This document shows, one piece after another, positions 18,909-64,000 of a stretch of 64,000 bases of DNA. Each line of letters opens with the position of its first letter. The first letter of the stretch is position 1. Both the position numbers and the translations under genes were made by a program. This stretch comes from Octopus sinensis (lineage: Eukaryota). The stretch covers positions 59,024,001-59,088,000 of the forward strand of contig NC_042998.1 of the NCBI RefSeq assembly GCF_006345805.1. The letters run 5' to 3'. The notes beneath the pieces are model-generated. The model worked only from the letters and a program-made list of their open reading frames with translations, did no database searches and had not been told where the DNA came from.

Positions 18909-19190
18909 ACATTTTTGACCGAGGTTACCGCGGTCTTTTCCGTAGGCTTTTCTTTCCACGAATAAACCTTATCTGCTTCTCCCTTTACACTTTACATCAT
19001 GACATTTCTGTGATACACGATACCTTTTGAAATTTTTTCTTTTCTTTTTCTTTTTTTTTCTTTCCCTTTTACAATCCCTTTTGATCGAAAACCTACCCCA
19101 CTTTTTTTTTCTTTTCTCCCCCAAAAGAAAAGCTCTACTTTGTAATCTGTCCCGTCTGTGTGCAGCCCTGTGTGGCTAATAAAGAAACAC
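18909..19190 (+). mobile_element. 3' UTR-only copy of the Tx1-like LINE
   Basis: Homologous to 63795-64000; ends GGCTAATAAAGAAACAC immediately before (ATCT)n. Confidence 0.75.
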
Positions 19191-19278
<88 letters not shown>

Positions 19279-19290
19279 GTCTATCTATCT
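19191..19290. repeat. (ATCT)n microsatellite between two Tx1-like copies
   Basis: About 25 units, directly visible. Confidence 0.95.
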
Positions 19291-20211
19291 GGAGAAGAAC
19301 TGGAACGAGATAACGAGTAGGGTGGTCACTCTCGCCCAGCAATGGGCCGAGAGGAAACTGTCCCTAAAAGGTCGGGCGGAGGTGGCGAACACGTACATCG
19401 CGTCCATCATCTACTACCGCCTGACCGTCGTACCTTGTCCCGACCCTACCATCACCAAACTAGAACGCATTCTCTTCCGCTTCTTGTGGAAAGGATGCGT
19501 CCCGATGGTCAGGCGATCCATTTGCTGTCAACACCCGTTAAAAGGAGGGCTGGGCATGCCGTGGTTGATGATGCGCAGACACGCGCTGAGACTGCGACAT
19601 CTCCGGCTCTATGTAGACGACGGTGAACAGGTGTGGTCGCCGTTTGTGAGGCACGCATTCCCGCAACTCGTCTCCATGACCGAACTGCAGTCGTGGATCA
19701 AAAAGAGGCCGAAAAAGGGCGAATGGCACCGCGAGTGTCGCGTTACTCTCAAGCAACTCTGCCGTCCCGGGTCGACCTTGAGTGACTTCAACACAACCAA
19801 AGCATTCTATAGGGGATTAGTGGAGGGGAGGTACGACGACGATCTCGGGGCAAACCTGGACGTCGACGAGGAATACCTGACCCACCTGTTTCAAACGACT
19901 TTCGGCCCGGGACCTATGGACAACTTCCAGAGATCCCTGGCCTGGCGGTGCTACCGAGAAGCGCTACCCATTCGGGATAAGCTATATAGGCATGGCTCGA
20001 GAAACACGGGGCCGACCTGCCCGAGATGCGGGCAGAGCGACGAAACCGCTCTGCACGCAATCGTGCAGTGTCCAGCAATTTCCGACCTGTGGGCTTATGT
20101 CGAACGACTGCTGTCACGTGTGGGACGTGTCGGTTTATCAGCCGAGTCTATCGTTAATATCGTCACGCCTCCTTCCTTCAAACGGGAAGAAAGAGCTATT
20201 TTTATCATACT
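19291..20211 (+). mobile_element. Tx1/L1-clade LINE ORF2 fragment (RT C-terminus plus zinc knuckle), truncated at both ends
   Basis: WAERKLSLKGRAEVANTYI, FRFLWKG, PLKGGLGMP, CPRC-x4-ET-x2-H-x4-C; open frame of about 305 codons. Confidence 0.85.
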
Positions 20212-20522
20212 TATTATTATTATTATTTCTCTCTCTATACATACATATATATATATTGCGGGTTAAGTGGTGGACTAATGCACCTTGTAAGTGAATATTT
20301 GTTATGCTGCAGCAATTGCATTGTCGGGCCGTTAGCGACTAAATCGACAACAATACGAAGCATGCTTCGTGAAATAAAGGGGAGCCTTTCGGATACTCAA
20401 CAGAATGTAAAACAAGACCGACCGTCAAAGGATGGGACAGGTAAATGAACTCAGGAGAGTCAATGGGTATCCGATTACTTTACACCCCCCCCCACACACA
20501 CGCACATACACGCATATATATT

Positions 20523-21834: not shown

Positions 21835-22990
21835 ATAAAAGCAGCGCCTGTCCTTGCGAACCTAGTAATGGATGTCTTTGAATCTACCCTATATGAATGT
21901 TCACTTGAAAGATTTGGACCCCCAGGTATCTAGACGATTGTATTATCATCTGGAATGAAACCTATGATAAACTTCTGGACTTCAAATCTATACTGAACAA
22001 TATAAACTCCAATATTCAATTTACAATGGACTATAGCTGTGAACAGTTCCCTTTTCTGGACATTTGGTTATAAAAATTCCAACAACCAAATTGAAACCGA
22101 CAATTACCTGAATCCAACAGACTCAAAACAGTATCTTCTTTTCGGCCCATGCCATCCTAAACACATCAAAATAAATATCCCATTCAATCTAGCAAGAAGC
22201 ATCTGTACAATTGTATCTGATACCACTACTCGGGAGCTTCTACAAGACGTCAAAATAGCATTCATTGAACGTCAATACCCACCCGCACTTATAGACCATG
22301 AATTAAACGTGCCAAACAATTGGACGCAAATACACTAAGAACAACAAAACGCAACATCACACCTCACTTTAAATCACTCCCATACATATCAACCCATAGC
22401 CCCAGAAAAAAAAATGATGCATACAACACAATTGTACAAAATCTCCCTCTGCTCACTCAAGACCTGAAAATGAACAACATTCTGAATACACATAAACTCC
22501 TCAAATGCAAAAGACAACACAAATTACTTAAGAGACTCCTAACAAGTGCAAAACTGTACTCAACACATACGATGCCAACAGTAAAAAAATGTGGAAGACC
22601 TAATTGTGGTACATGCCCAAATCTAATTGAGGGCTCGGAATTCACATTCCAGCGAGGAAAAATATTTTAAATTATAAGCAACTTCACATGTGCCTCTCAG
22701 AACCTGATTCATGTCCAAACATGCTCAAGGTATGGTCACAGTTATGTGGCCACACGAGGCTTACTTTGAGATGCAGAGTTACATTGCATAAAGAACAGAT
22801 TCGTTTTCCTCAATATAGGTAGATAGCTCTGAGCGCAAACATATTGACAGATGCGCAAGATATAAAACATAGAATTTCCATATTTTTCTGTTATAACAAT
22901 TCAAAGATTCAATCTCCTTACAAGAACGCCTAAACAAGGAAAACATGTTTATACTAAAGTACAGACCACACCTGAATATACAAACTTGAC
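21835..22990 (+). pseudogene. Penelope-like element: RT C-terminal half and GIY-YIG endonuclease, frameshifted and 5'-truncated
   Basis: [68 protein letters not shown], ends KYRPHLN. Confidence 0.85.
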
Positions 22991-39480: not shown

Positions 39481-40087
39481 GACAGATATGATGTGAATAC
39501 TTACCTTGTTCTGATTGCATAATTTATATTTGATTTTAGCCTCTTGCTGCATTTAGTTTGGGATACATTTTGGTATTGTTGATTCAATGCAACTAATACT
39601 AGACCTTCTAGATCTGCCCCGAGCCAAGTGCTTTTGAGTTTGATGGCTTTCGCATTGGTCTACTCTCTCATGCAAGCTATTAACCATAAGGAGAAGAATA
39701 TGTTTTCAACAAGGTAAGAACAATTATAAGAGAAACATGTTTGAAAATAATTATAGGGTAAAAATTATTGAAAAGTTTTTGCCCAAGCCTTCTTCCCATA
39801 GGATCAAATAATCTAAATATAGTTTTCAGTTTTTGTAGATTATCAAAAATTCAATTAACAAAAATTGGATAATAAATGATTTCAGCAAAAAATTATCATA
39901 TGTAAGTTTAACAATCATTCTATCTCCCAAATGACTTAAAATTAACAGAGATAGCGACTGTTCCGTCTTGTGAAACCCAAAGACTGAATGACTTTTGGAT
40001 ATAACTATATTTGGAACATGTGCGGGGCTATATATTGCAACACTTAGATATGTTAAATCACATTACATTTACAACGAGTGAAGAAAC

Positions 40088-40745
40088 CTAATAGTTTCAT
40101 TTGATGTGTTTAGCCTGCGTACAAATATACCATTTTGGTTTAATAAATTGAATAACAATGGGAACTGTGGCAGGCCCCAAAAATCTAGGTAAAAATGTGA
40201 AATGTTTTTTAGAATTATTTGATGGAAAATAGAAATTGATATTTAGATGATTGTTTAATCGCATAGAAACAAGGCTTAGTTAAACTTTTTTTTTTACTTT
40301 AAGACTCATAAATATTATTAACATAGCATACTATGAAACATAGCAAAGATACATAACCATTCCAAGACATATTGGTTACAAAAGAAACTGAATAGAATCG
40401 AGAAAGCTGTATTTTAAACCAAAGACTCGAGGCATTATTTTTTTTTTATGATATGTCATCCGAAACACGCGAGAATCAATATTCCATTCAATCAGATTAA
40501 AAGAAGATATACTTTTGTATCAAATCCAAACACCCGAAAGAGAATACTAAAAGAAGTAAAAGATATTTTGATTGAAAAACGTTATCTACCATCATTAATT
40601 GATAACGAAATATACAGAAAAGAGCCAACTGATATCAGTGATTTAAGGCCTGTAAACAGCAAAATAGAAACGCCTGAACGAATAATCCCATGAATGTTGA
40701 AGCCTTTAATATGATTAATCAAAATTTGCCATTTCTGAAATGCGA
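40088..40745 (+). pseudogene. Decayed Penelope-like RT fragment
   Basis: IVSFDVFSLRTNIP, YLDDCLI, PFQDILV, CHPKHARINIPFNQIKR; related to 21835-22990. Confidence 0.75.
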
Positions 40746-40759
40746 CAGAAAACTGAAAT

Positions 40760-41095
40760 GAAGGCGTAACTATGTGATAAGAAGCTTGTTTTCCAACCAC
40801 ATGGTTCTAAGTTCAGTTCCACTGCATGACACCTTAGCGAAGTGTCTTCTACTGTTGCCTCGGGCGGACCAAAGTCTTGTGAGTGGATTTTGTCGGTGGA
40901 GTCAAAAAGATGTCCGTCACAAATATTGACATCTATGTGTACGTGTCTTTGTGTCTTTGTGTGTTCTCCACCACCGCTTGACAACCGGTGTAGGTGCATT
41001 TATGTCCCCGTAACTTAGCGGTTTGGAAAAAAGAACAGACCGATAGAGTAAGTACCAAACTTAGAAATATAACAACTGAGGTTGATTCTTACACT
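40760..41095 (+). mobile_element. SINE family 1, decayed
   Basis: Similarity across both halves. Confidence 0.7.
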
Positions 41096-41779
41096 AGAAT
41101 TTGGCATTCGTCGTGTGTGAAAATAAAATAGAATACGGGTGGACAGTCAATTTTTAATCACAACGAATATTTCCGCACAACATAATTCTTCATATATGCA
41201 TGTATTTGAATATGCAGCCGTTTACCTCTATAATGGGATCCAGTTGCATCTCCTCAGGTGATATTCATTTGCTGTCTCCGTTAGTAAACAACCTCCGACT
41301 TCGATGCTGTCACATCAATCTGCTTTATTTGAATTTAGTAGACGCTGGCAGTTTTCATTTCGCTTGCTGTTAACATGCTTCTGCGTTCCTGCTATGAGTG
41401 ATATTGGGTGTATTGGATGTTTATTTTGGTATTAACCGATTTTGGATCTCTTCCTCATGTTATGATGCACATGTGAAATTTTATCATCCGATATATTCAT
41501 TTTTGGTCGGTGCATTTTTTGGTTTAGCTTTAGCGAAAAGTGTAGACTTAGTTTTTCCATCATTTGACCCTTCGTAGTACGCTGATTCAAAAATCGCGAC
41601 TTCGACCAGTTATCTGGCTTTTGACAGTGTTATTTAAAGTATATTCCGTAAAGAACGTAGCAGTAGAGACCACGTTTACCCTAAGAATTGCCGAATAGCT
41701 GGTCGTATTAGGATATACTTCCAAGTCTAGATTTTGACATTCGTCTTGTATGAAAATAAAACTGAATAAGTTTGAGTCA

Positions 41780-42090
41780 GCAGGAAGGAATACAGTTGGA
41801 CAGTTAATTTTTTAATCATGCCAAATGTTTCCACACAATATAGTTCTTGTTGTATACAAGTATTTGATTATGCAATCGTTTACGCGTAGAATGGGGATTC
41901 AGTTGTATTTCCTCAGGTGATATTCAATTGCTGTCTCCGTTAGTAAAACGCCTCTGAGGATATACAGCTGAATCTCATTATTCAGGTAAACGGTTGCATA
42001 ATTAAATACCTGTATATATGAAAAACTAAATTATGTAGAAATATTTGTCGTGATTTAAAAAATAACAGTCCAGCCGTATTCCTTCCTGTT
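41780..42090. repeat. Fold-back element with decayed hammerhead-like arms; partial third copy at 41095-41290
   Basis: CAGGAAGGAATAC.. / ..GTATTCCTTCCTG termini; CTGAGGA in each arm (41954 on +, about 41916 on -); GAAA degenerate. Confidence 0.6.
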
Positions 42091-42119
42091 GACTACAATT
42101 TATTTAAATGTGCATGTTT

Positions 42120-43524: not shown

Positions 43525-44030
43525 TGCCGGTTAGAGAACATAGTTATTGAAATTTAAATTTAACTTAATAAGGATGAAAAATTGAATATTAATTTGATTA
43601 ATATCAATTTAAAACCAGTGGTCTAGCATATTAAAATCTGAAGTTTCAGAAAAATTATTTTCTGCAGAATTATTTCCTGTATTTTAGCGCGCCAAAACGA
43701 AGACTTTTGAAAGATAACCCCAAGTGTAATTGGTAGAACTGTATACATGTTCAATCTCATGTGGACATCTCGTGTATAGTTCTACAAATTATATTTGCAA
43801 TGACGATCATACTGATGAGCTACGGACAATTACGTAAGTAATTTGCGTAAGTGTTAATAGCGAAATTAGTTTATGATGAATCTTTATTTTGTTTCTTTTC
43901 ATTTGTCTTGCTCGCTTACTTTCTGGCGTTTGCTAAATTTTCTTGAGAACATCCTTTCTTAGTGGTAAGACCATAGCGGATCTACTTCTAGCATAACGGA
44001 TGTCCACGTAATGGTCATCCCTTTTATATA
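43525..44030 (+). mobile_element. Hammerhead-bearing non-coding element, copy A
   Basis: Homologous in inverted orientation to 45630-46290; ends at (TA)n. Confidence 0.75.
43806..43877 (+). ncRNA. Type I hammerhead ribozyme motif
   Basis: ATCATA-CTGATGA-GCTA..TAGC-GAAA-TTAGTT-TATGAT; 6-bp helix I, helix II with internal hairpin. Confidence 0.8.
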
Positions 44031-45517
44031 TATGTAATATAATTTTTCACATGTTTGCATGCATGCATGTATGTACATACCGATGTATGTATAAATATAA
44101 ACACGTAGATGTATAAATGTCATTACATATGTGGGCCCGTATACTTTGAGTTATGTATACGCACTTAAGTATATACATGTATGTATATTCAAGTTTATAT
44201 ACACGTATTACATACTAAAAGTCTTAAATGTTTTCAATATTTCGTCTGTGTCTTTGTGATTTTGTGGAACCCAAAGTCTCAAGAGCAGTACGTAGGCACA
44301 TGCTGAAGGCCTCCAATTATTATAGAAAGTAATATAAACTATAGACAAGACGAATAACTTAAGAGCTCTCTCCGATTCGCCATAGAGTTCTCCTTTCGCC
44401 AAACTTGAAAAACTATGCTGACATCTACTAGATAAATGATTTCAACTACTGTGCATAATTTCTCTCCGTATCAGTTCCTTATCTCTAGTCTGTTACGTCT
44501 GCATACTACTGTAGAATTAGGCCATTTGATAAAAGTTTTGCTAGATGAAATTGTGAGTTCTTCGTTTTACAACCATGTAAAGACATATATTCAACCTCAA
44601 ATCCATCCTTATTACTTTGAGAAAGTTGTAACAAAGATGAAGCTTTCCTTGATAACTTCATATGCTTGGCAAATATTTATAGATTATCCACAAAGAAACA
44701 ATGTGCTTGGTTAGTGTTTCTGCCTTTAGTCAATCGCATATCCCTAAAATTTCTTTAACAAAAAGAACGAGAGGTTTGTTGAAAGTATATACAGCATCAC
44801 AGAAATACTCCCTTTGAAATATAACTATGCATTATTGTATCTTATCGTAGACAATAGAACCTATGTAAGTAAGCAAGTATGGAAGATCGGACAGACGGAC
44901 AGTGGATGCAGCTTGTACATTTTCAGTCACTCGACTCAATCATCACTCGTAAAGTTTTGGTCAAACCGAGGCTAAAGTACAGAACATTTCACATCAACCC
45001 GGCGGTTGCAATATGATCTCTTTAACCGCCCAACATTGCCTTCAAAAGCGTTTTTCTTTCTGTGAGACTAATATTTTGCTGATTCTTTTTCAATACTTTT
45101 CATAAAAGGTTTCGATTTGGTTAAAGGGCTCCAACCACAACAATTGATGTCTGCTAAGAAATCACAGAAAATCAATAAAGATAGCATCTATTGATTGATT
45201 ATTTCCACCATAGCACTTACCGAATGCTGAAATTAATCATCTAAACTGCACATAGTTCTAACAAATACTATCAATACATATTTCATTGTTAAATCTTCAT
45301 TGCAATGCATACGCAAAAATTACATATCTATCCTTCCATCCATCTGTAGGTATGTGTGTGTATATATCTACGCATGTATGTATATATTGATATTTGTTTT
45401 CAAGTGAAGTTATATATTAAAATAAACAATGTAACATTAAACTGAATGATCATTCAATACATTTTTATTAGCGTACATATTAAATGTTTCAAGAAAGACA
45501 ATGAATAGTGATGGATA

Positions 45518-45562
<45 letters not shown>

Positions 45563-45629
45563 TATACATACACATACACGCACACACACACATATATATA
45601 TATATACATATATGTATATGTATATATAT

Positions 45630-46290
45630 ATAAGAGGGATGACCACTAAGTGAATCTCCATATGCTAGAAATCGCCCCCTATGGTCTTACCACTAAGAAA
45701 GGAATGTTCTCAAGAAAATTTAGCAAACGCCAGAACGTAAGCGGGTCAAATGAAAAGATACAAATGATACAGATTAATCACAAACCAGTTTCGTTGCTAC
45801 CACTTACGTAATCACTTACGTAGATGTCTGCAACTCTTCAGTGTGATCGTCATAGCAAAATATAATATACAGAACTATACATGAGGCGTCCGCATGAGAT
45901 TGGACATGTATATAGTTCTACCATTTACATTTGAAGTTATATTTCAAAAGTCTTCGTGTTGACGCGCCAAAATACCGGAAATAATTCTGCAGAAAATAAT
46001 TCTCTGCAGTGAATTTTGCCGGTTAGAGAACATAGTTATTTAAATTTAAATTTGAAATAATAAAGGTAAAACATTAAAAATGAATTTGATGAATATCAAT
46101 TTAAAACCAGTGGTCTAGCATATAGAAATATCTAACTTCTAGCATATGGATCTTCACTTAGTGGTCATTCCTCTTATATATATTTAAAATAATTTTTCCG
46201 AATCTTCAGATTTTAATATGCTAGACCACTGGTTTTAAATTGATATTAATCAAATTAATATTCAATTTTTCACTCTTATTAGTCTATTTT
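45630..46290 (-). mobile_element. Hammerhead-bearing element, copy B, with inverted termini
   Basis: 45630-46000 is the reverse complement of 43660-44030; about 42-bp inverted ends 45630-45672 / 46135-46178; further inverted piece 46185-46290. Confidence 0.75.
45777..45847 (-). ncRNA. Type I hammerhead ribozyme motif
   Basis: Minus strand ATCACA-CTGAAGA-GTTGC..GCAAC-GAAA-CTGGTT-TGTGAT. Confidence 0.8.
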
Positions 46291-46294
46291 AAAT

Positions 46295-46390
<96 letters not shown>

Positions 46391-46946
46391 ATATATATAT
46401 ATATATATGCTTATATATATATATATATATATGTATATATGTGTGTGTTTGTATGTGTCTGTGCATATATATGGATATCTGTCTATATATATTGTACATG
46501 TATAGTACATCTATCTATGTGTGTGTCTGTAAAATATAATTTCATTGAGCCAAGGAAGAAGGCAAAGAAGGAACCAAATCTCCTTCATATAACACAACAT
46601 CTTCATAAAAATGGCAGAATATATTGGATAATATAGAACCAGATAAACTCAGAAAAGATATAAGATCGTCGCCGATAGTACGTTTCTTTAATATTAATTT
46701 GTTCGATTAGGACGGGACTGGAGCTGAAACAATAAATCAATAATGAGGTGTTTTCGTTCTCAATCGACTCGGTTCAATTAACAACTATATCAACCATCTT
46801 TAAAGAAGGGTAAGGCAGCATTATGTAATATTATCGCAATGTCCTTGAGCAAACATGATAGGTAAGTTTGTAATGCCTTTTCATTTTCAGTTGTATGGGG
46901 TCAATTTTTTGCGGGGGATAAACAAGTGCATAACAACGAGTAATAT

Positions 46947-55322: not shown

Positions 55323-56607
55323 TACGAGGGGCGTTCAATAAGTAATGCCCCTGACCCACTTCCCATAGAAGTAGAGCAACGAAACTTGGCACAGTTATTA
55401 GTCTTTGTCTACATAGGAACCACCCAGAGTTACGCATTTCTCCTATCGTTTGATGCAGCTCTGGAGACCGTTTTTGTAGAATACCCCAGTTTGGTCCTCC
55501 AACCACGACGTGACTTCAGAAATCAAGGCTACATCATCTGGGAAACGCTTTCCTTTCAAAAACAACTTCATGGCTGGGAAGAGGTGAAAATCAGAGGGTG
55601 CAAGGTCAGGAAAGTAGGGGGGATGAGGGAGGAGTTCATAGCCGCACGTCTGTGCTTCTGATCTGGCGACACGCCAGAGCGTTGTCCTGCAGGAGGAGGA
55701 TGCCTTTGCTGATCTTGCCCCGCCTCTTGATTTTGATAGCTCCTCTTAATTTCTTCAAAAGTGAAGCATAATAGGCTCCTGTAATTGTGGTACCCTTTGC
55801 CAGGAAATCTGTCATCACTACTCCGTCCTGGTCCCAGAAGACTGTGAGCATGACCTTGCCAGCGGAGGGCTGCATCCTTGCCTTCTTTGGAGGCGGTGAG
55901 TCACGGTGCTTCCACTGCATTGACTGGGCTTTGGTCTCTGAATCATAGCGATGGACCCAGGTTTCATCCTGTGTAATCAGTCTTTTGAAAAACTTTGACT
56001 CATCTTCTTGGCACATCTCCAAATTCATCCTCGAGCACTCGACGCGTTCTTGCTTCTGGAAAGGTGTGAGCAACCTGGGAATCCATCTGGCAGACACCTT
56101 TCGCATATGCAAATGGTCATGGATGATAGTTTCCACAGACCCGGTACTAATCTTGACCTCATGGGCTATTTGGCGAATAGTTATGCGTCGATCTTCCAAA
56201 ATGGCAGCCTCAACTTGACGGACAGATGCCTCATCAATGACAGAAGGGGGCGACCAGATCTGGGAGCTGTTTCCACAGAGTTCCGACCATGTTTAAATTC
56301 ACGATGCCAGCGTTTTACAAGTTCATATGATGGGGCATCATCATCATAAGTTACTTTCATTTCATCAAAAGTCTCCCGTGGTGTGCGTCCTTTCAAATAC
56401 AAAACCCGGATCACTGCTCGACATTCAACTGGCTCCATTTCACACTTGACTCTGTTCAAACACCTGTAAATCAGAAACTACTGTGAGTTCAGCGCTGTAA
56501 TTTGCCACGTAGTCTATAGAGATATAAATAATTGCACATGTAAAATTTCAGCTAGATCAAATAATTGCAAGTGGATCAGGAGCATTACTTATTGAACGTC
56601 CCTCGTA
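55323..56607 (-). mobile_element. Near full-length mariner (DD34D) transposon, defective transposase at about 56459-55398
   Basis: TIRs TACGAGGGGCGTTCAATAAGTAATGCCCCTGA / TCAGGAGCATTACTTATTGAACGTCCCTCGTA; WIPRLL, QDETW, QDNA, YFPDLAPSD; frameshifts and one stop. Confidence 0.92.
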
Positions 56608-59832: not shown

Positions 59833-60739
59833 TATTGAGTCCCCCCATAAATAATGCGGGTTTCTTTATACTTTTATTTTTGAAAATTAAGATAAACAAA
59901 GTACTTTATCTAAAATATACTCTCCTTCATTTTCTGCAATGCTCTTCCATCTACCTAGTTGACTTACAAGGCCCCTCTTCTAAAATTCACTTGTCCACGA
60001 GGAAAATACTCCTCCACTATTATTCTGATCTCGTACTTTTTCCATCCAAATGATTCTGAAGACTGTGAAATAAATGATAATCAGATGAGACAATGTCCGG
60101 CGAATACGGTAGGTGGGGCATCGTTTCCCATTCAAACTGCTCCTGCCTTTGGAATGTCTTCGTCTCTCTATGTGGTAGAGCATTATCTTGATGGAAGAAC
60201 ACCTTGTGTTTTGAAACCAAAGATGTTCGTTTTTCTTCTAGTGCTGTCTTGAATGACTGGTTGAATGGCCAAATCCAAGCTTCTCTGCTGGTTCCTCAAC
60301 AGTTACGATGAGATTTTGTTCCATCAGGGTTTGCAGGACGTCATCGTCGAGCTCTACAGATCTTCTTGGACGAGGCTCGTCTTCTAGGCCAGAGTTGCCG
60401 GCTCGGAATTTCTGGAACCACAGTTGACATTGGCTTACGATTATTGTCTGATCCCCATATACTGCAATAATATTTCTCGCACTTCCCCTTGCATTGTTGC
60501 CTTTATTGAAATCATAATGCAAAATATGCCGAATGTATTCCTTTGTCACTTCCAATATAGCTTTGAAAAAATAACTGTTAAAATCGAACTGGACTGTTCA
60601 AAACTTGCATTAAAAGTAAGAATAAGGTAACATTCCTACCTGCTTTTATAGCAAGTTGATGCAGGTAGTTTATGCCGTCCCTTATGAATTTTAGCTCATG
60701 CAATTGAAAACACCGTATTACTTATGGGATGACCCAATA
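59833..60739 (-). mobile_element. Internally deleted mariner transposon
   Basis: TIRs TATTGAGTCCCCCCATAAATAATGCGG / CCGTATTACTTATGGGATGACCCAATA; IRHILHYDFNKG..WFQKFRAG; QDNALPH; PYSPDIVSSDYHLF. Confidence 0.88.
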
Positions 60740-62596: not shown

Positions 62597-62742
62597 CTTC
62601 TACAATATAAACAAACAACAACACAGGCAAACGTGCGCAGGCATAAACACGCAAACATGCTTTTATATAATTCCCAGTTTTCTAAGAATTTGGCGAAGAT
62701 ATTGCGATAATTTGGACGAATTATAAAGAAACAGCGAATAAG

Positions 62743-62858
62743 TCTATCTATCTATCTATCTATATCTATCTCTCTGCCTCTCTATCTCTCTATCTATCTA
62801 TCTATCTATCTCTCTGCCTCTCTATCTCTCTATCTATCTATCTTTCTATCTATCTATC

Positions 62859-62901
<43 letters not shown>

Positions 62902-62909
62902 ATCTATCT

Positions 62910-62979
<70 letters not shown>

Positions 62980-62992
62980 AATCTATCTATCT
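62743..62992. repeat. (ATCT)n-rich microsatellite
   Basis: Directly visible; abuts the LINE. Confidence 0.95.
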
Positions 62993-64000
62993 CCCGCAGC
63001 TCGTCTCCTTGGACGAACTACAGTCATGGATCAAGCAGAGACCGAGGCTAGGCGAATGGCACCGCGAGTGTCGCGTTGCTCTCAAGCAACTCTGCCGTCC
63101 GGGATCGAACTTGTGCGACTCCATCACAACAAAGGCATTCTATAGAGGATTAGTGGAGGGGAGGTGCGACGACGAACTCGGGCAGAGTCTGGGCGTCGAC
63201 GAGGAACACCTGAACCGCCTGTTCAGGACAACTTTCGGGCCGGGACCTATGAACAATCACCAAAGATCCCTGGCCTGGCAGTGCTATCGAGAAGCATTAC
63301 CTGTTCGGGATAAGCTCTACAGACACGGTTCCAGACACACTGGACCGACTTGCCCGAGATGCGGTCAGAGCGACGAAACCGTTCTGCACGCACTCGTGCA
63401 ATGTCCAACCATTTCCGACCTGTGGGCTTATGCCGAACGGCTGCTGTCACGTGTGGGACGAATCCGCCTATCGGCCGAGTCTATCCTGAGAATTGCTCCG
63501 CCCCCTTCCCTCAACCGGGAAGGCAAGGCAGTTTTCATCGTACTGGTGGCCATGGTGAAAGAATGTGTGTGGTGGACTCGAGCGAAAGGATTAGAGACAA
63601 ACACTTACCTCTCTGGCCAATCGCTCATCAACTTTTTCAAGTACCACTTGAAAAGGAAGGTGAGAATGGAGAGGGAAGTTTTGTCTCGCGAAAGATTCAA
63701 AAAAAGATGGGTGAATGTTGCAAAGATGGTGCGTGCTAGTAACGAAACCATTTTGAGCATGATCCTGTAGATCGTGAAAAAGAAAGAAAGAGAGCATTTT
63801 TGACCTCATGTGTTTATTTCCTCCCTGACTGGGGTTCCCGTGGTCTTTTCTGTAGGCGTTTCTTCCCACGGATGAACCCAATCTTGTTATATCAATGTTT
63901 ACACCATTATTTCTGTGATACACGATTTTCCTTTTTTTCCTTTTTTTTCCTCCTCTCGATCCCTTTTGATCGCAATCTTACATTTTTTAATTTTTTTCCA
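62993..64000 (+). mobile_element. 5'-truncated Tx1/L1-clade LINE: ORF2 C-terminus (stop at 63770) and 3' UTR running off the window
   Basis: Closely similar to 19660-20211; CPRC..ETVLHALVQC zinc knuckle; frame open to the stop. Confidence 0.88.

What the first reader, a model, noticed from the sequence alone, without database searches (positions are those of the whole stretch)
43806..45847. Two hammerhead copies with compensatory changes in helices I and II
Seen: helix I ATCATA/TATGAT versus ATCACA/TGTGAT; helix II GCTA/TAGC versus GTTGC/GCAAC; N7 varies (T/A) while the rest of the core is fixed; both keep an inner TACGTAA hairpin and a GUU triplet; the helix III sequences ATTAGT and ACTGGT each differ by one base from the palindrome ACTAGT. 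This is the strongest internal evidence of selection on RNA structure. A U at the cleavage position is uncommon among natural HHRs.
Basis: partly seen in the sequence, partly recalled or inferred. Interest (0 to 1): 0.72.

Follow-up and report, generated by a model that had tools for sequence, protein, structure and literature searches.

The report
Hammerhead retrozyme spread by Penelope enzymes
The two hammerhead motifs lie in two separate, worn insertions of a roughly 500-base protein-free repeat found at hundreds of places in this animal genome; their matched base changes are old differences between subfamilies, and the RNA likely cuts itself in pairs, likely closes into a circle and is likely copied back into DNA by Penelope-type retrotransposon enzymes, a known kind of element.

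Summary
Both type I hammerheads are real (43806-43877 +, 45777-45847 -). They sit in two independent, tail-to-tail insertions of one non-coding 503-541-nt repeat (920 hits to one 22-mer, control 0). The helix I and II swaps are subfamily markers. Across 12 subfamily consensuses, 161 of 163 stem cells pair, and 14 two-sided changes map to the tree (null mean 3.0, 0 of 5000). Helix III always stays self-complementary (6-8 nt), so cutting likely needs a dimer. Selection acted on the replicating lineages; inserted copies decay near neutrally, and each window copy has lost one base of a predicted tertiary contact. The two copies are on opposite strands and cannot pair in one transcript. Insertions carry Penelope-like marks: (TA)n targets, partial tandems, and two fixed 3' ends, with 40 of 40 intact inverted pairs using one of each. 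An autonomous Penelope-like element in this genome shows the same pattern. 62 of 119 arms run through the cut site, which fits a circular or uncut template. Verdict: a new non-LTR retrozyme family, a known kind; this scan reported the same kind on other DNA of this genome. Cleavage and circles are untested.

The parts
43525..43661 (-). Insertion 1, inverted 5'-truncated arm; its outer end (43525) is the long-type 3' end, next to a (TATC)n/TA-rich tract
   Evidence: (unit positions 168-306 of a 541-nt ruler)
43653..44048 (+). Insertion 1, main arm (subfamily A); runs through the predicted cut site and ends at the short-type 3' end in TA-rich sequence
43735..43783 (+). Upstream hairpin of the unit, covarying between subfamilies
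   Evidence: 6 of 8 predicted pairs have two-sided changes
43806..43877 (+). Type I hammerhead, copy 1: 6-bp helix I, CUGAUGA, 4-bp helix II with a hairpin inserted in loop 2, GAAA, GUU; predicted cut between 43871 and 43872
43865..43870 (+). Helix III self-complementary hexamer ATTAGT (self-duplex only -0.2 kcal/mol; ACTAGT in sister copies)
43878..43878 (+). Position 1.7 is G; U in 77 of 79 related copies. Private loss of the predicted U1.7 tertiary contact
   Evidence: role of U1.7 from PMC11875169 passages
44049..45614 (.). Spacer, not part of the element: microsatellites and unique DNA with an old antisense LINE reverse-transcriptase remnant at about 44560-44860
   Evidence: 0 of 9 loci hit by the spacer carry the unit
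45615..46133 (-). Insertion 2, main arm (subfamily B), nearly one full unit; ends at the short-type 3' end in the (TA)n tract 45515-45632
45777..45847 (-). Type I hammerhead, copy 2; predicted cut between 45783 and 45782
45784..45789 (-). Helix III hexamer ACTGGT, self-pairing with two G-U wobbles (-3.2 kcal/mol)
45797..45797 (-).
46135..46306 (+). Insertion 2, inverted 5'-truncated arm ending at the long-type 3' end, joined to (TATC)n at 46296-46406

Best explanation
The two motifs are type I hammerheads in two independent, decaying insertions of a non-coding 503-541-nt dispersed repeat whose RNA likely self-cleaves as a dimer through its palindromic helix III, likely closes into a circle, and is likely reverse-transcribed into (TA)n DNA by a Penelope-like retrotransposon protein acting in trans. 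Shown: the repeat, its subfamilies, the covariation, the lack of an ORF, the head-to-tail continuity of the unit, the (TA)n targets, the two fixed 3' ends and their pairing in inverted arms. Inferred: transcription of tandem copies, dimer cleavage, ligation to a circle, and the identity of the mobiliser. In this model the protein nicks both target strands and starts copying at two internal sites about 105 nt apart (as shown in vitro for another Penelope-like element), one site per strand, giving two 5'-truncated arms that meet head to head; long runs go round the unit more than once. Only source RNAs with a working fold kept being copied, so compensatory changes were fixed between subfamilies. 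The two window copies are likely dead ends.
For: Family: 2,714 and 2,720 first-look candidates (40 scored each); 920 hits to a 22-mer at up to 1 mismatch, 257 exact hits to a young-subfamily 21-mer, 217 exact intact-core hits, reversed controls all 0. Covariation: 96.0% of 916 cells paired vs 81.2% shuffled, score 0.480 vs 0.223, slid controls at most 0.117; 161 of 163 consensus cells paired and 14 joint changes vs null mean 3.0, 0 of 5000, while flanks fall to 39-66% identity between the main groups. Helix III changes letters and length (ACTAGT, ACATGT, ACTGGT, ACAATTGT, ACTCGAGT, ACCGGGT) yet self-pairs. No ORF in the unit; long arms continue into another unit, up to 1,399 nt. 113 of 119 arms end at one of two sites; 40 of 40 inverted pairs with both ends at these sites have one short and one long end (p=2e-12); 99 of 113 such ends abut TA-type repeats. 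An autonomous element with an 850-aa RT + GIY-YIG frame has the same target, two 3' ends about 40 nt apart (18 short, 10 long, 2 unscored of 30) and short+long pairing in 6 of 8 fetched regions. 62 of 119 arms cross the cut site and 5' ends do not pile up there (2 of 113 within 2-3 nt). Circular monomers fold better than shuffles (z -3.8, -5.7, -3.7) and better in sense than antisense. Both arms and tandem passes share subfamily and some private variants.
Against: No cleavage, circle or RNA end was observed; the only runs found were guessed-RNA contigs. No genomic footprint of cleavage: arms pass the cut site freely, which fits an uncut linear template as well as a circle, and hammerhead mutants of the Anolis element still insert in vitro (PMC11167929). 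The unit has no DNA similarity to the autonomous element found, so the mobiliser is not identified. The unit is longer (503-541 nt) than the 170-400 nt circles described, and arrays are short (at most 2.8 units among 74 loci). In one search the count of pairs with a two-sided change (13) did not beat the shuffles (12.0; 176 of 500), and those 44 rows were chosen by me, most after a core-pattern and helix II filter. The tree was fixed by hand from flank similarity, and group C is one sequence. 8 of 9 predicted Xenopus retrozyme dimers did not cleave in vitro.
Confidence: 0.8

Rival explanations
1. Same non-autonomous, Penelope-mobilised repeat, but the template is an uncut linear read-through transcript of tandem copies; the hammerhead is kept for another step (trimming, release from host transcripts) and no circle is copied.
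For: 62 of 119 arms cross the cut site with no 5' pile-up; in vitro, unprocessed RNA is the main substrate of the Anolis element and no RNA ends were seen at its cut site.
Against: Repeated passes within one arm share private variants and show no position-specific lineages in the small sample (7 private shared, 1 discordant in 15 comparisons), and the monomer folds well as a circle. Neither excludes tandem duplication after insertion.
Confidence: 0.12
2. The unit is only the pseudo-LTR of an autonomous Penelope-like element that I did not find; the copies are its 5'-truncated stumps.
For: All insertion marks are those of Penelope-like elements; 24 of 57 Xenopus retrozyme families match known transposons, mostly pseudo-LTRs. 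My searches score only the best 40 candidates.
Against: Every long arm among 74 loci runs into another copy of the unit, never into an ORF. Penelope-type ORF remnants near some units are separated from them or in unrelated orientation. The unit is non-coding in the three sense frames translated.
Confidence: 0.06
3. The two copies are a host-selected pair (or the inverted ends of one 2.8-kb element) kept for a local function.
For: They lie only 1.6 kb apart and both keep all core bases.
Against: Different subfamilies, each with its own complete short+long inverted structure; spacer unrelated; 54 of 79 copies keep the core anyway; each copy has a change at a conserved loop position; other close pairs occur among the first 100 hits.
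Confidence: 0.02

Closest known systems
Metazoan non-LTR retrozymes (Cervera and de la Pena 2020, PMC7229834, parts 2-3 of 6 and passages read; Li, Clavereau and Pollet 2026, bioRxiv 10.64898/2026.07.22.740005, parts 1-3 of 5 and passages read, supplements not seen)
   Same: Non-coding, low-GC (33-37%) repeat with one type I hammerhead per unit, head-to-tail copies, self-paired predicted circle, co-occurrence with Penelope-like elements. The 6-nt palindromic helix III matches the axolotl/newt dimer type (1 pair + palindromic tetraloop).
   Different: Unit 503-541 nt (170-400 nt for the tested circles; 51-972 bp in the vertebrate survey); mostly sub-monomer inverted pairs rather than long arrays; a 20-25-nt hairpin inserted in loop 2; GUU in several subfamilies; circles and cleavage not shown; no homologous pseudo-LTR found.
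Hammerheads in pseudo-LTRs of Penelope-like elements (Cervera and De la Pena 2014, PMC4209133, parts 1-2 of 4 read)
   Same: Type I topology, palindromic 15.2-16.2 region, families full of compensatory changes, copies often single or in opposite-strand pairs.
   Different: Canonical sizes here (6-bp helix I, 4-bp helix II, no extra base between A9 and G10.1, U1.7 and loop-2 A conserved) rather than the minimal form; no ORF attached.
EN+ Penelope-like retrotransposons: Poseidon PAc of Anolis (Frangieh et al. 2024, PMC11167929, parts 1-2 of 4 read) and the structure summary in Craig et al. 2021 (PMC8557442, passages)
   Same: AT-rich targets, partial tandems, inverted 5'-truncated copy, two internal start sites that define a tail present at one end only.
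   Different: Non-autonomous; tail about 105 nt rather than 30-40 nt. The strict one-short-one-long use of the two sites in inverted pairs is not stated in the parts I read (PAc showed no strand difference in vitro).

Membership tests
Type I hammerhead ribozyme | Core CUGANGA, GAAA, U16.1-H17 in type I order | tested here: met
   both window copies intact
Type I hammerhead ribozyme | Helices I and II supported by covariation | tested here: met
Type I hammerhead ribozyme | Helix III, or a palindrome that forms it in a dimer | tested here: met
   self-complementary in all 12 subfamily consensuses; duplex -0.2 to -6.4 kcal/mol
Type I hammerhead ribozyme | Loop 1 - loop 2 tertiary contact | tested here: inconclusive
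   U1.7 (77 of 79) and last loop-2 A (72 of 79) conserved in the family, each changed in one window copy; geometry with the inserted hairpin not testable
Type I hammerhead ribozyme | Match to an Rfam hammerhead model | tested here: not met
   no hit at gathering score or E up to 10; the long loop 2 and short helix III likely explain this (inference)
Type I hammerhead ribozyme | Self-cleavage | not testable with these tools
   needs in vitro transcription
Metazoan non-LTR retrozyme | Non-coding unit with one type I hammerhead | tested here: met
Metazoan non-LTR retrozyme | Head-to-tail copies with two or more complete hammerheads | tested here: met
   L102 (period 505) and L264; rare, and not at the window locus
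Metazoan non-LTR retrozyme | GC below 50% and strongly self-paired monomer | tested here: met
   GC 0.33-0.37, 61-68% paired, z -3.7 to -5.7 on 3 units, 40 shuffles each
Metazoan non-LTR retrozyme | Unit length 170-400 nt (2020 paper) or 51-972 bp (2026 preprint) | tested here: inconclusive
   503-541 nt: outside the first range, inside the second
Metazoan non-LTR retrozyme | Expressed as circular RNA | not testable with these tools
   only guessed-RNA contigs were available
Autonomous Penelope-like element | RT + GIY-YIG ORF joined to the pseudo-LTR | tested here: not met
   no ORF joined to any arm in the loci fetched
Penelope-mobilised insertion | AT-rich target, partial tandems, inverted truncated copy, two 3' ends | tested here: met
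Penelope-mobilised insertion | Sequence link to a named autonomous partner | tested here: not met
   no similarity to the one autonomous family compared; other families not compared

The most novel reading that the evidence does not exclude
Each inverted insertion is made by a dimer of the Penelope-like protein that copies one circular retrozyme RNA from two fixed start sites, one on each nicked target strand. This would show from the genome alone that animal retrozyme circles are direct templates for Penelope-like enzymes, and would explain the inverted pseudo-LTR plus one-sided tail of these elements as a single two-strand priming event.
Probability: 0.35. Interest if true: 0.6.

Novelty: new member of a known kind. 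Interest (0 to 1): 0.36.

Why it matters
It adds a retrozyme family with at least a dozen subfamilies that form a natural mutational scan of a dimer-type hammerhead: helix III changes sequence and length but stays palindromic, position 17 moves among U, C and A, and helix II carries a long insert. The insertion footprints support the proposed but untested mobilisation of animal retrozymes by Penelope-like enzymes, and a young subfamily (94-99% identity between copies) plus a young autonomous element in the same genome give ready material to test it. The two window copies themselves are ordinary decayed insertions.

Tried and rejected
Rfam: no hammerhead hit. Search for RNA: no RNA holder listed; guessed-RNA contigs cover the unit and not the spacer, but with hundreds to thousands of genomic copies this cannot tell transcription from DNA or read-through, and contigs show no ends; not used as evidence. 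A cluster of 5' ends near the cut site in a first sample came from a query that began at the cut; in the sample picked by a downstream motif it vanished, so cleavage has no footprint. The PLE ORF upstream of the unit in L017 is a separate insertion with its own 3' end and a microsatellite between. An apparent shared upstream flank (L002/L093) was microsatellite. The idea that inverted arms come from two different RNA molecules: a first signal (p=0.006) was due to misaligned arm ends and CpG sites; after filtering, 3 discordant vs 15 concordant sites in inverted pairs and 1 vs 21 in tandems, p=0.31; rejected as unsupported. The pair as terminal inverted repeats of one element: rejected. Pfam found nothing useful in four window frames. 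No paper on an octopus retrozyme or this family came up; the library is partial, repeat databases were not searchable, and supplements of the 2026 preprint were not seen. No source for how rare GUU is among natural hammerheads was found; one search lists GUU as an active cleavage site.

Full report
Observation. A type I hammerhead descriptor finds these two and nothing else in the window, and nothing in 100 shuffles. Predicted cuts are 43871/43872 and 45783/45782, after GUU. Rfam does not detect them.

Context. The motifs lie in about 390 nt of inverted similarity at 83.5% identity. The window comes from a 2.72-Gb animal genome; size and microsatellite load suggest an octopus, which is my recall and was not tested. 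Each copy retrieves about 2,700 first-look candidates, of which 40 were scored, the best at 89-92% identity, so each is closer to copies elsewhere than to its neighbour. Pattern counts give 920, 257 and 217 hits with reversed controls of 0. The unit is 503-541 nt, continues head to tail (505-nt period in L102; 1,399 nt in L264) and has no ORF. On a circular ruler the window holds two complete, separate insertions, 43525-44048 and 45615-46306, tail to tail, each a main arm plus an inverted truncated arm. The spacer is unrelated.

Covariation. These are subfamily markers. The fifth pair is not: C-A in 65, C-G in 7. A wider pattern found younger and more distant subfamilies with helix I such as GTTCGG/CTGAAC, ATTCTA/TAGAAT and ATCCTA/TAGGAT. 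On 44 rows that I picked, most after a core and helix II filter, 96.0% of 916 cells pair against 81.2% in shuffles and the covariation score is 0.480 against 0.223; the count of pairs with a two-sided change (13 vs 12.0) was not above the shuffles. To allow for kinship I collapsed rows to 12 subfamily consensuses on a hand-fixed tree guided by flank similarity: 161 of 163 stem cells pair, and at least 14 changes hit both sides on one branch, against a mean of 3.0 for randomly re-paired columns (0 of 5000). Flanks of the main groups are only 39-66% identical. An upstream hairpin also covaries, and three circular monomers fold better than shuffles and better in sense than antisense.

Helix III and position 17. 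Helix III is ACTAGT, ATTAGT, ACTGGT, ACATGT, ACCGGGT, ACAATTGT or ACTCGAGT; all self-pair, with G-U allowed. This is the dimer design described for newt, axolotl and Penelope-like hammerheads. Position 17 is U, C or A in the subfamily consensuses, never G; GUU is listed as a cleavable site. I found no source on its rarity in nature.

Where selection acted. Inserted copies decay near neutrally: core mismatches 31 of 787 vs flank 401 of 7,414 in old copies (p=0.09) and 9 of 379 vs 231 of 6,368 in 35 young arms (p=0.25; that flank count includes subfamily markers). 54 of 79 old copies keep all 10 core bases, so two intact cores are unremarkable. Copy 1 has G at position 1.7 (U in 77 of 79), copy 2 has G at the last loop-2 base (A in 72 of 79), and these two bases are the Hoogsteen contact described for full-length hammerheads. 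Copy 1's palindrome barely self-pairs (-0.2 kcal/mol). Being on opposite strands, the two cannot form a dimer in one transcript. Selection is therefore best placed on the source RNAs that were copied.

How it spreads. I took the first 100 of 257 hits of a motif about 105 nt downstream of the cut, fetched 82 loci and dropped 8 duplicates, leaving 74 loci and 119 arms. 113 arms end at one of two sites, about 154-176 (56) or 255-283 (57) nt after the cut; 99 of these abut TA-type repeats, against 14 of 31 for the 5' flanks of single arms. Of 43 inverted pairs, 40 have one short and one long end, none has two alike, and 3 have a broken end. I saw this before reading the scan's note e1-9996671, which reports the same for another family. 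Penelope-like elements show partial tandems, an inverted truncated copy and a tail at one end, and the purified Anolis protein nicks AT-rich DNA on both strands and starts at two internal sites that delimit the tail. This genome holds a young autonomous family with RT and GIY-YIG whose copies have two 3' ends at (TA)n and pair short with long in 6 of 8 regions fetched. It shares no DNA with the unit, so it is a candidate, not a proven partner.

Template. 62 of 119 arms run through the cut site, 5 through two or more, and the rate of 5' ends is flat around it. A cut linear monomer is thus excluded as the main template; a re-ligated circle or an uncut tandem transcript remain. Arms and passes of one insertion share subfamily and a few private variants, which fits one source. 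RNA data could not decide.

Comparison. The element meets the sequence criteria of a metazoan non-LTR retrozyme, with a longer unit than the tested circles, few tandems and a hairpin in loop 2; cleavage and circles are untested. It is not an autonomous Penelope-like element. Searches for an octopus retrozyme found no description in a partial library. The scan has reported the same kind of element in other families of this genome; none matched this sequence.

Verdict. Observation confirmed; interpretation partly supported. New member of a known kind, interest 0.36. The strict pairing of the two 3' ends is the most useful lead, because it makes Penelope-driven copying of a retrozyme directly testable.

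Noticed in passing
L017, L174-L203, L286-L293 (G000): Very abundant young autonomous Penelope-like family (150 scored hits at 94% or more amino-acid identity, 16,966 first-look candidates; frame up to 850 aa with RT, a CxxCxxC linker that I recall as Neptune-type, and GIY-YIG). Its 3' UTR holds a hammerhead-like motif with UUGAAAA in place of CUGANGA (U3-A8 swap) and a palindromic ACCGGT-C.
   Followed up: partly
L016, L020, L062, L063, L086: Five copies of the ACATGT/GUC subfamily share a U4C change in the core (CCGA), so a lineage with this core variant seems to have replicated.
   Followed up: no
L099 unit; window 43690-43725 with 43885-43915: Helix I is predicted to continue past an internal loop into a long stem that pairs sequence upstream and downstream of the hammerhead in both old and young units; RNAalifold on the divergent alignment did not recover it.
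   Followed up: partly
L244, L245, L281, L153, L165: Several arms that reach a second cut site stop within about 27 nt upstream of it (3 of 5 in the unbiased set); too few to interpret.
   Followed up: partly
runs X1-X4, X15, X16: The repeat family is held by runs under four organism labels; laid contigs of three labels cover the unit.
   Followed up: partly
window 21838-22977 and 39927-40848: Decayed Penelope-like ORF remnants (tblastn to the L293 protein, best E 8e-67 and 4e-16).
   Followed up: partly
window 41094-42104: Another repeat with two direct copies about 658 nt apart and an inverted copy, ending at a (CTA)n/(TAA)n tract.
   Followed up: no
window 55443-56477 and 59980-60597: Frames that look like mariner transposase remnants (recognised from recall).
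   Followed up: no
window 19085-20266 and 62742-63770: Two related LINE 3'-end frames, each starting in a (TATC)n tract (recognised from recall).
   Followed up: no
window 44560-44860 (-): Old LINE reverse-transcriptase remnant between the two insertions, 67-76% identical to many genomic copies.
   Followed up: partly
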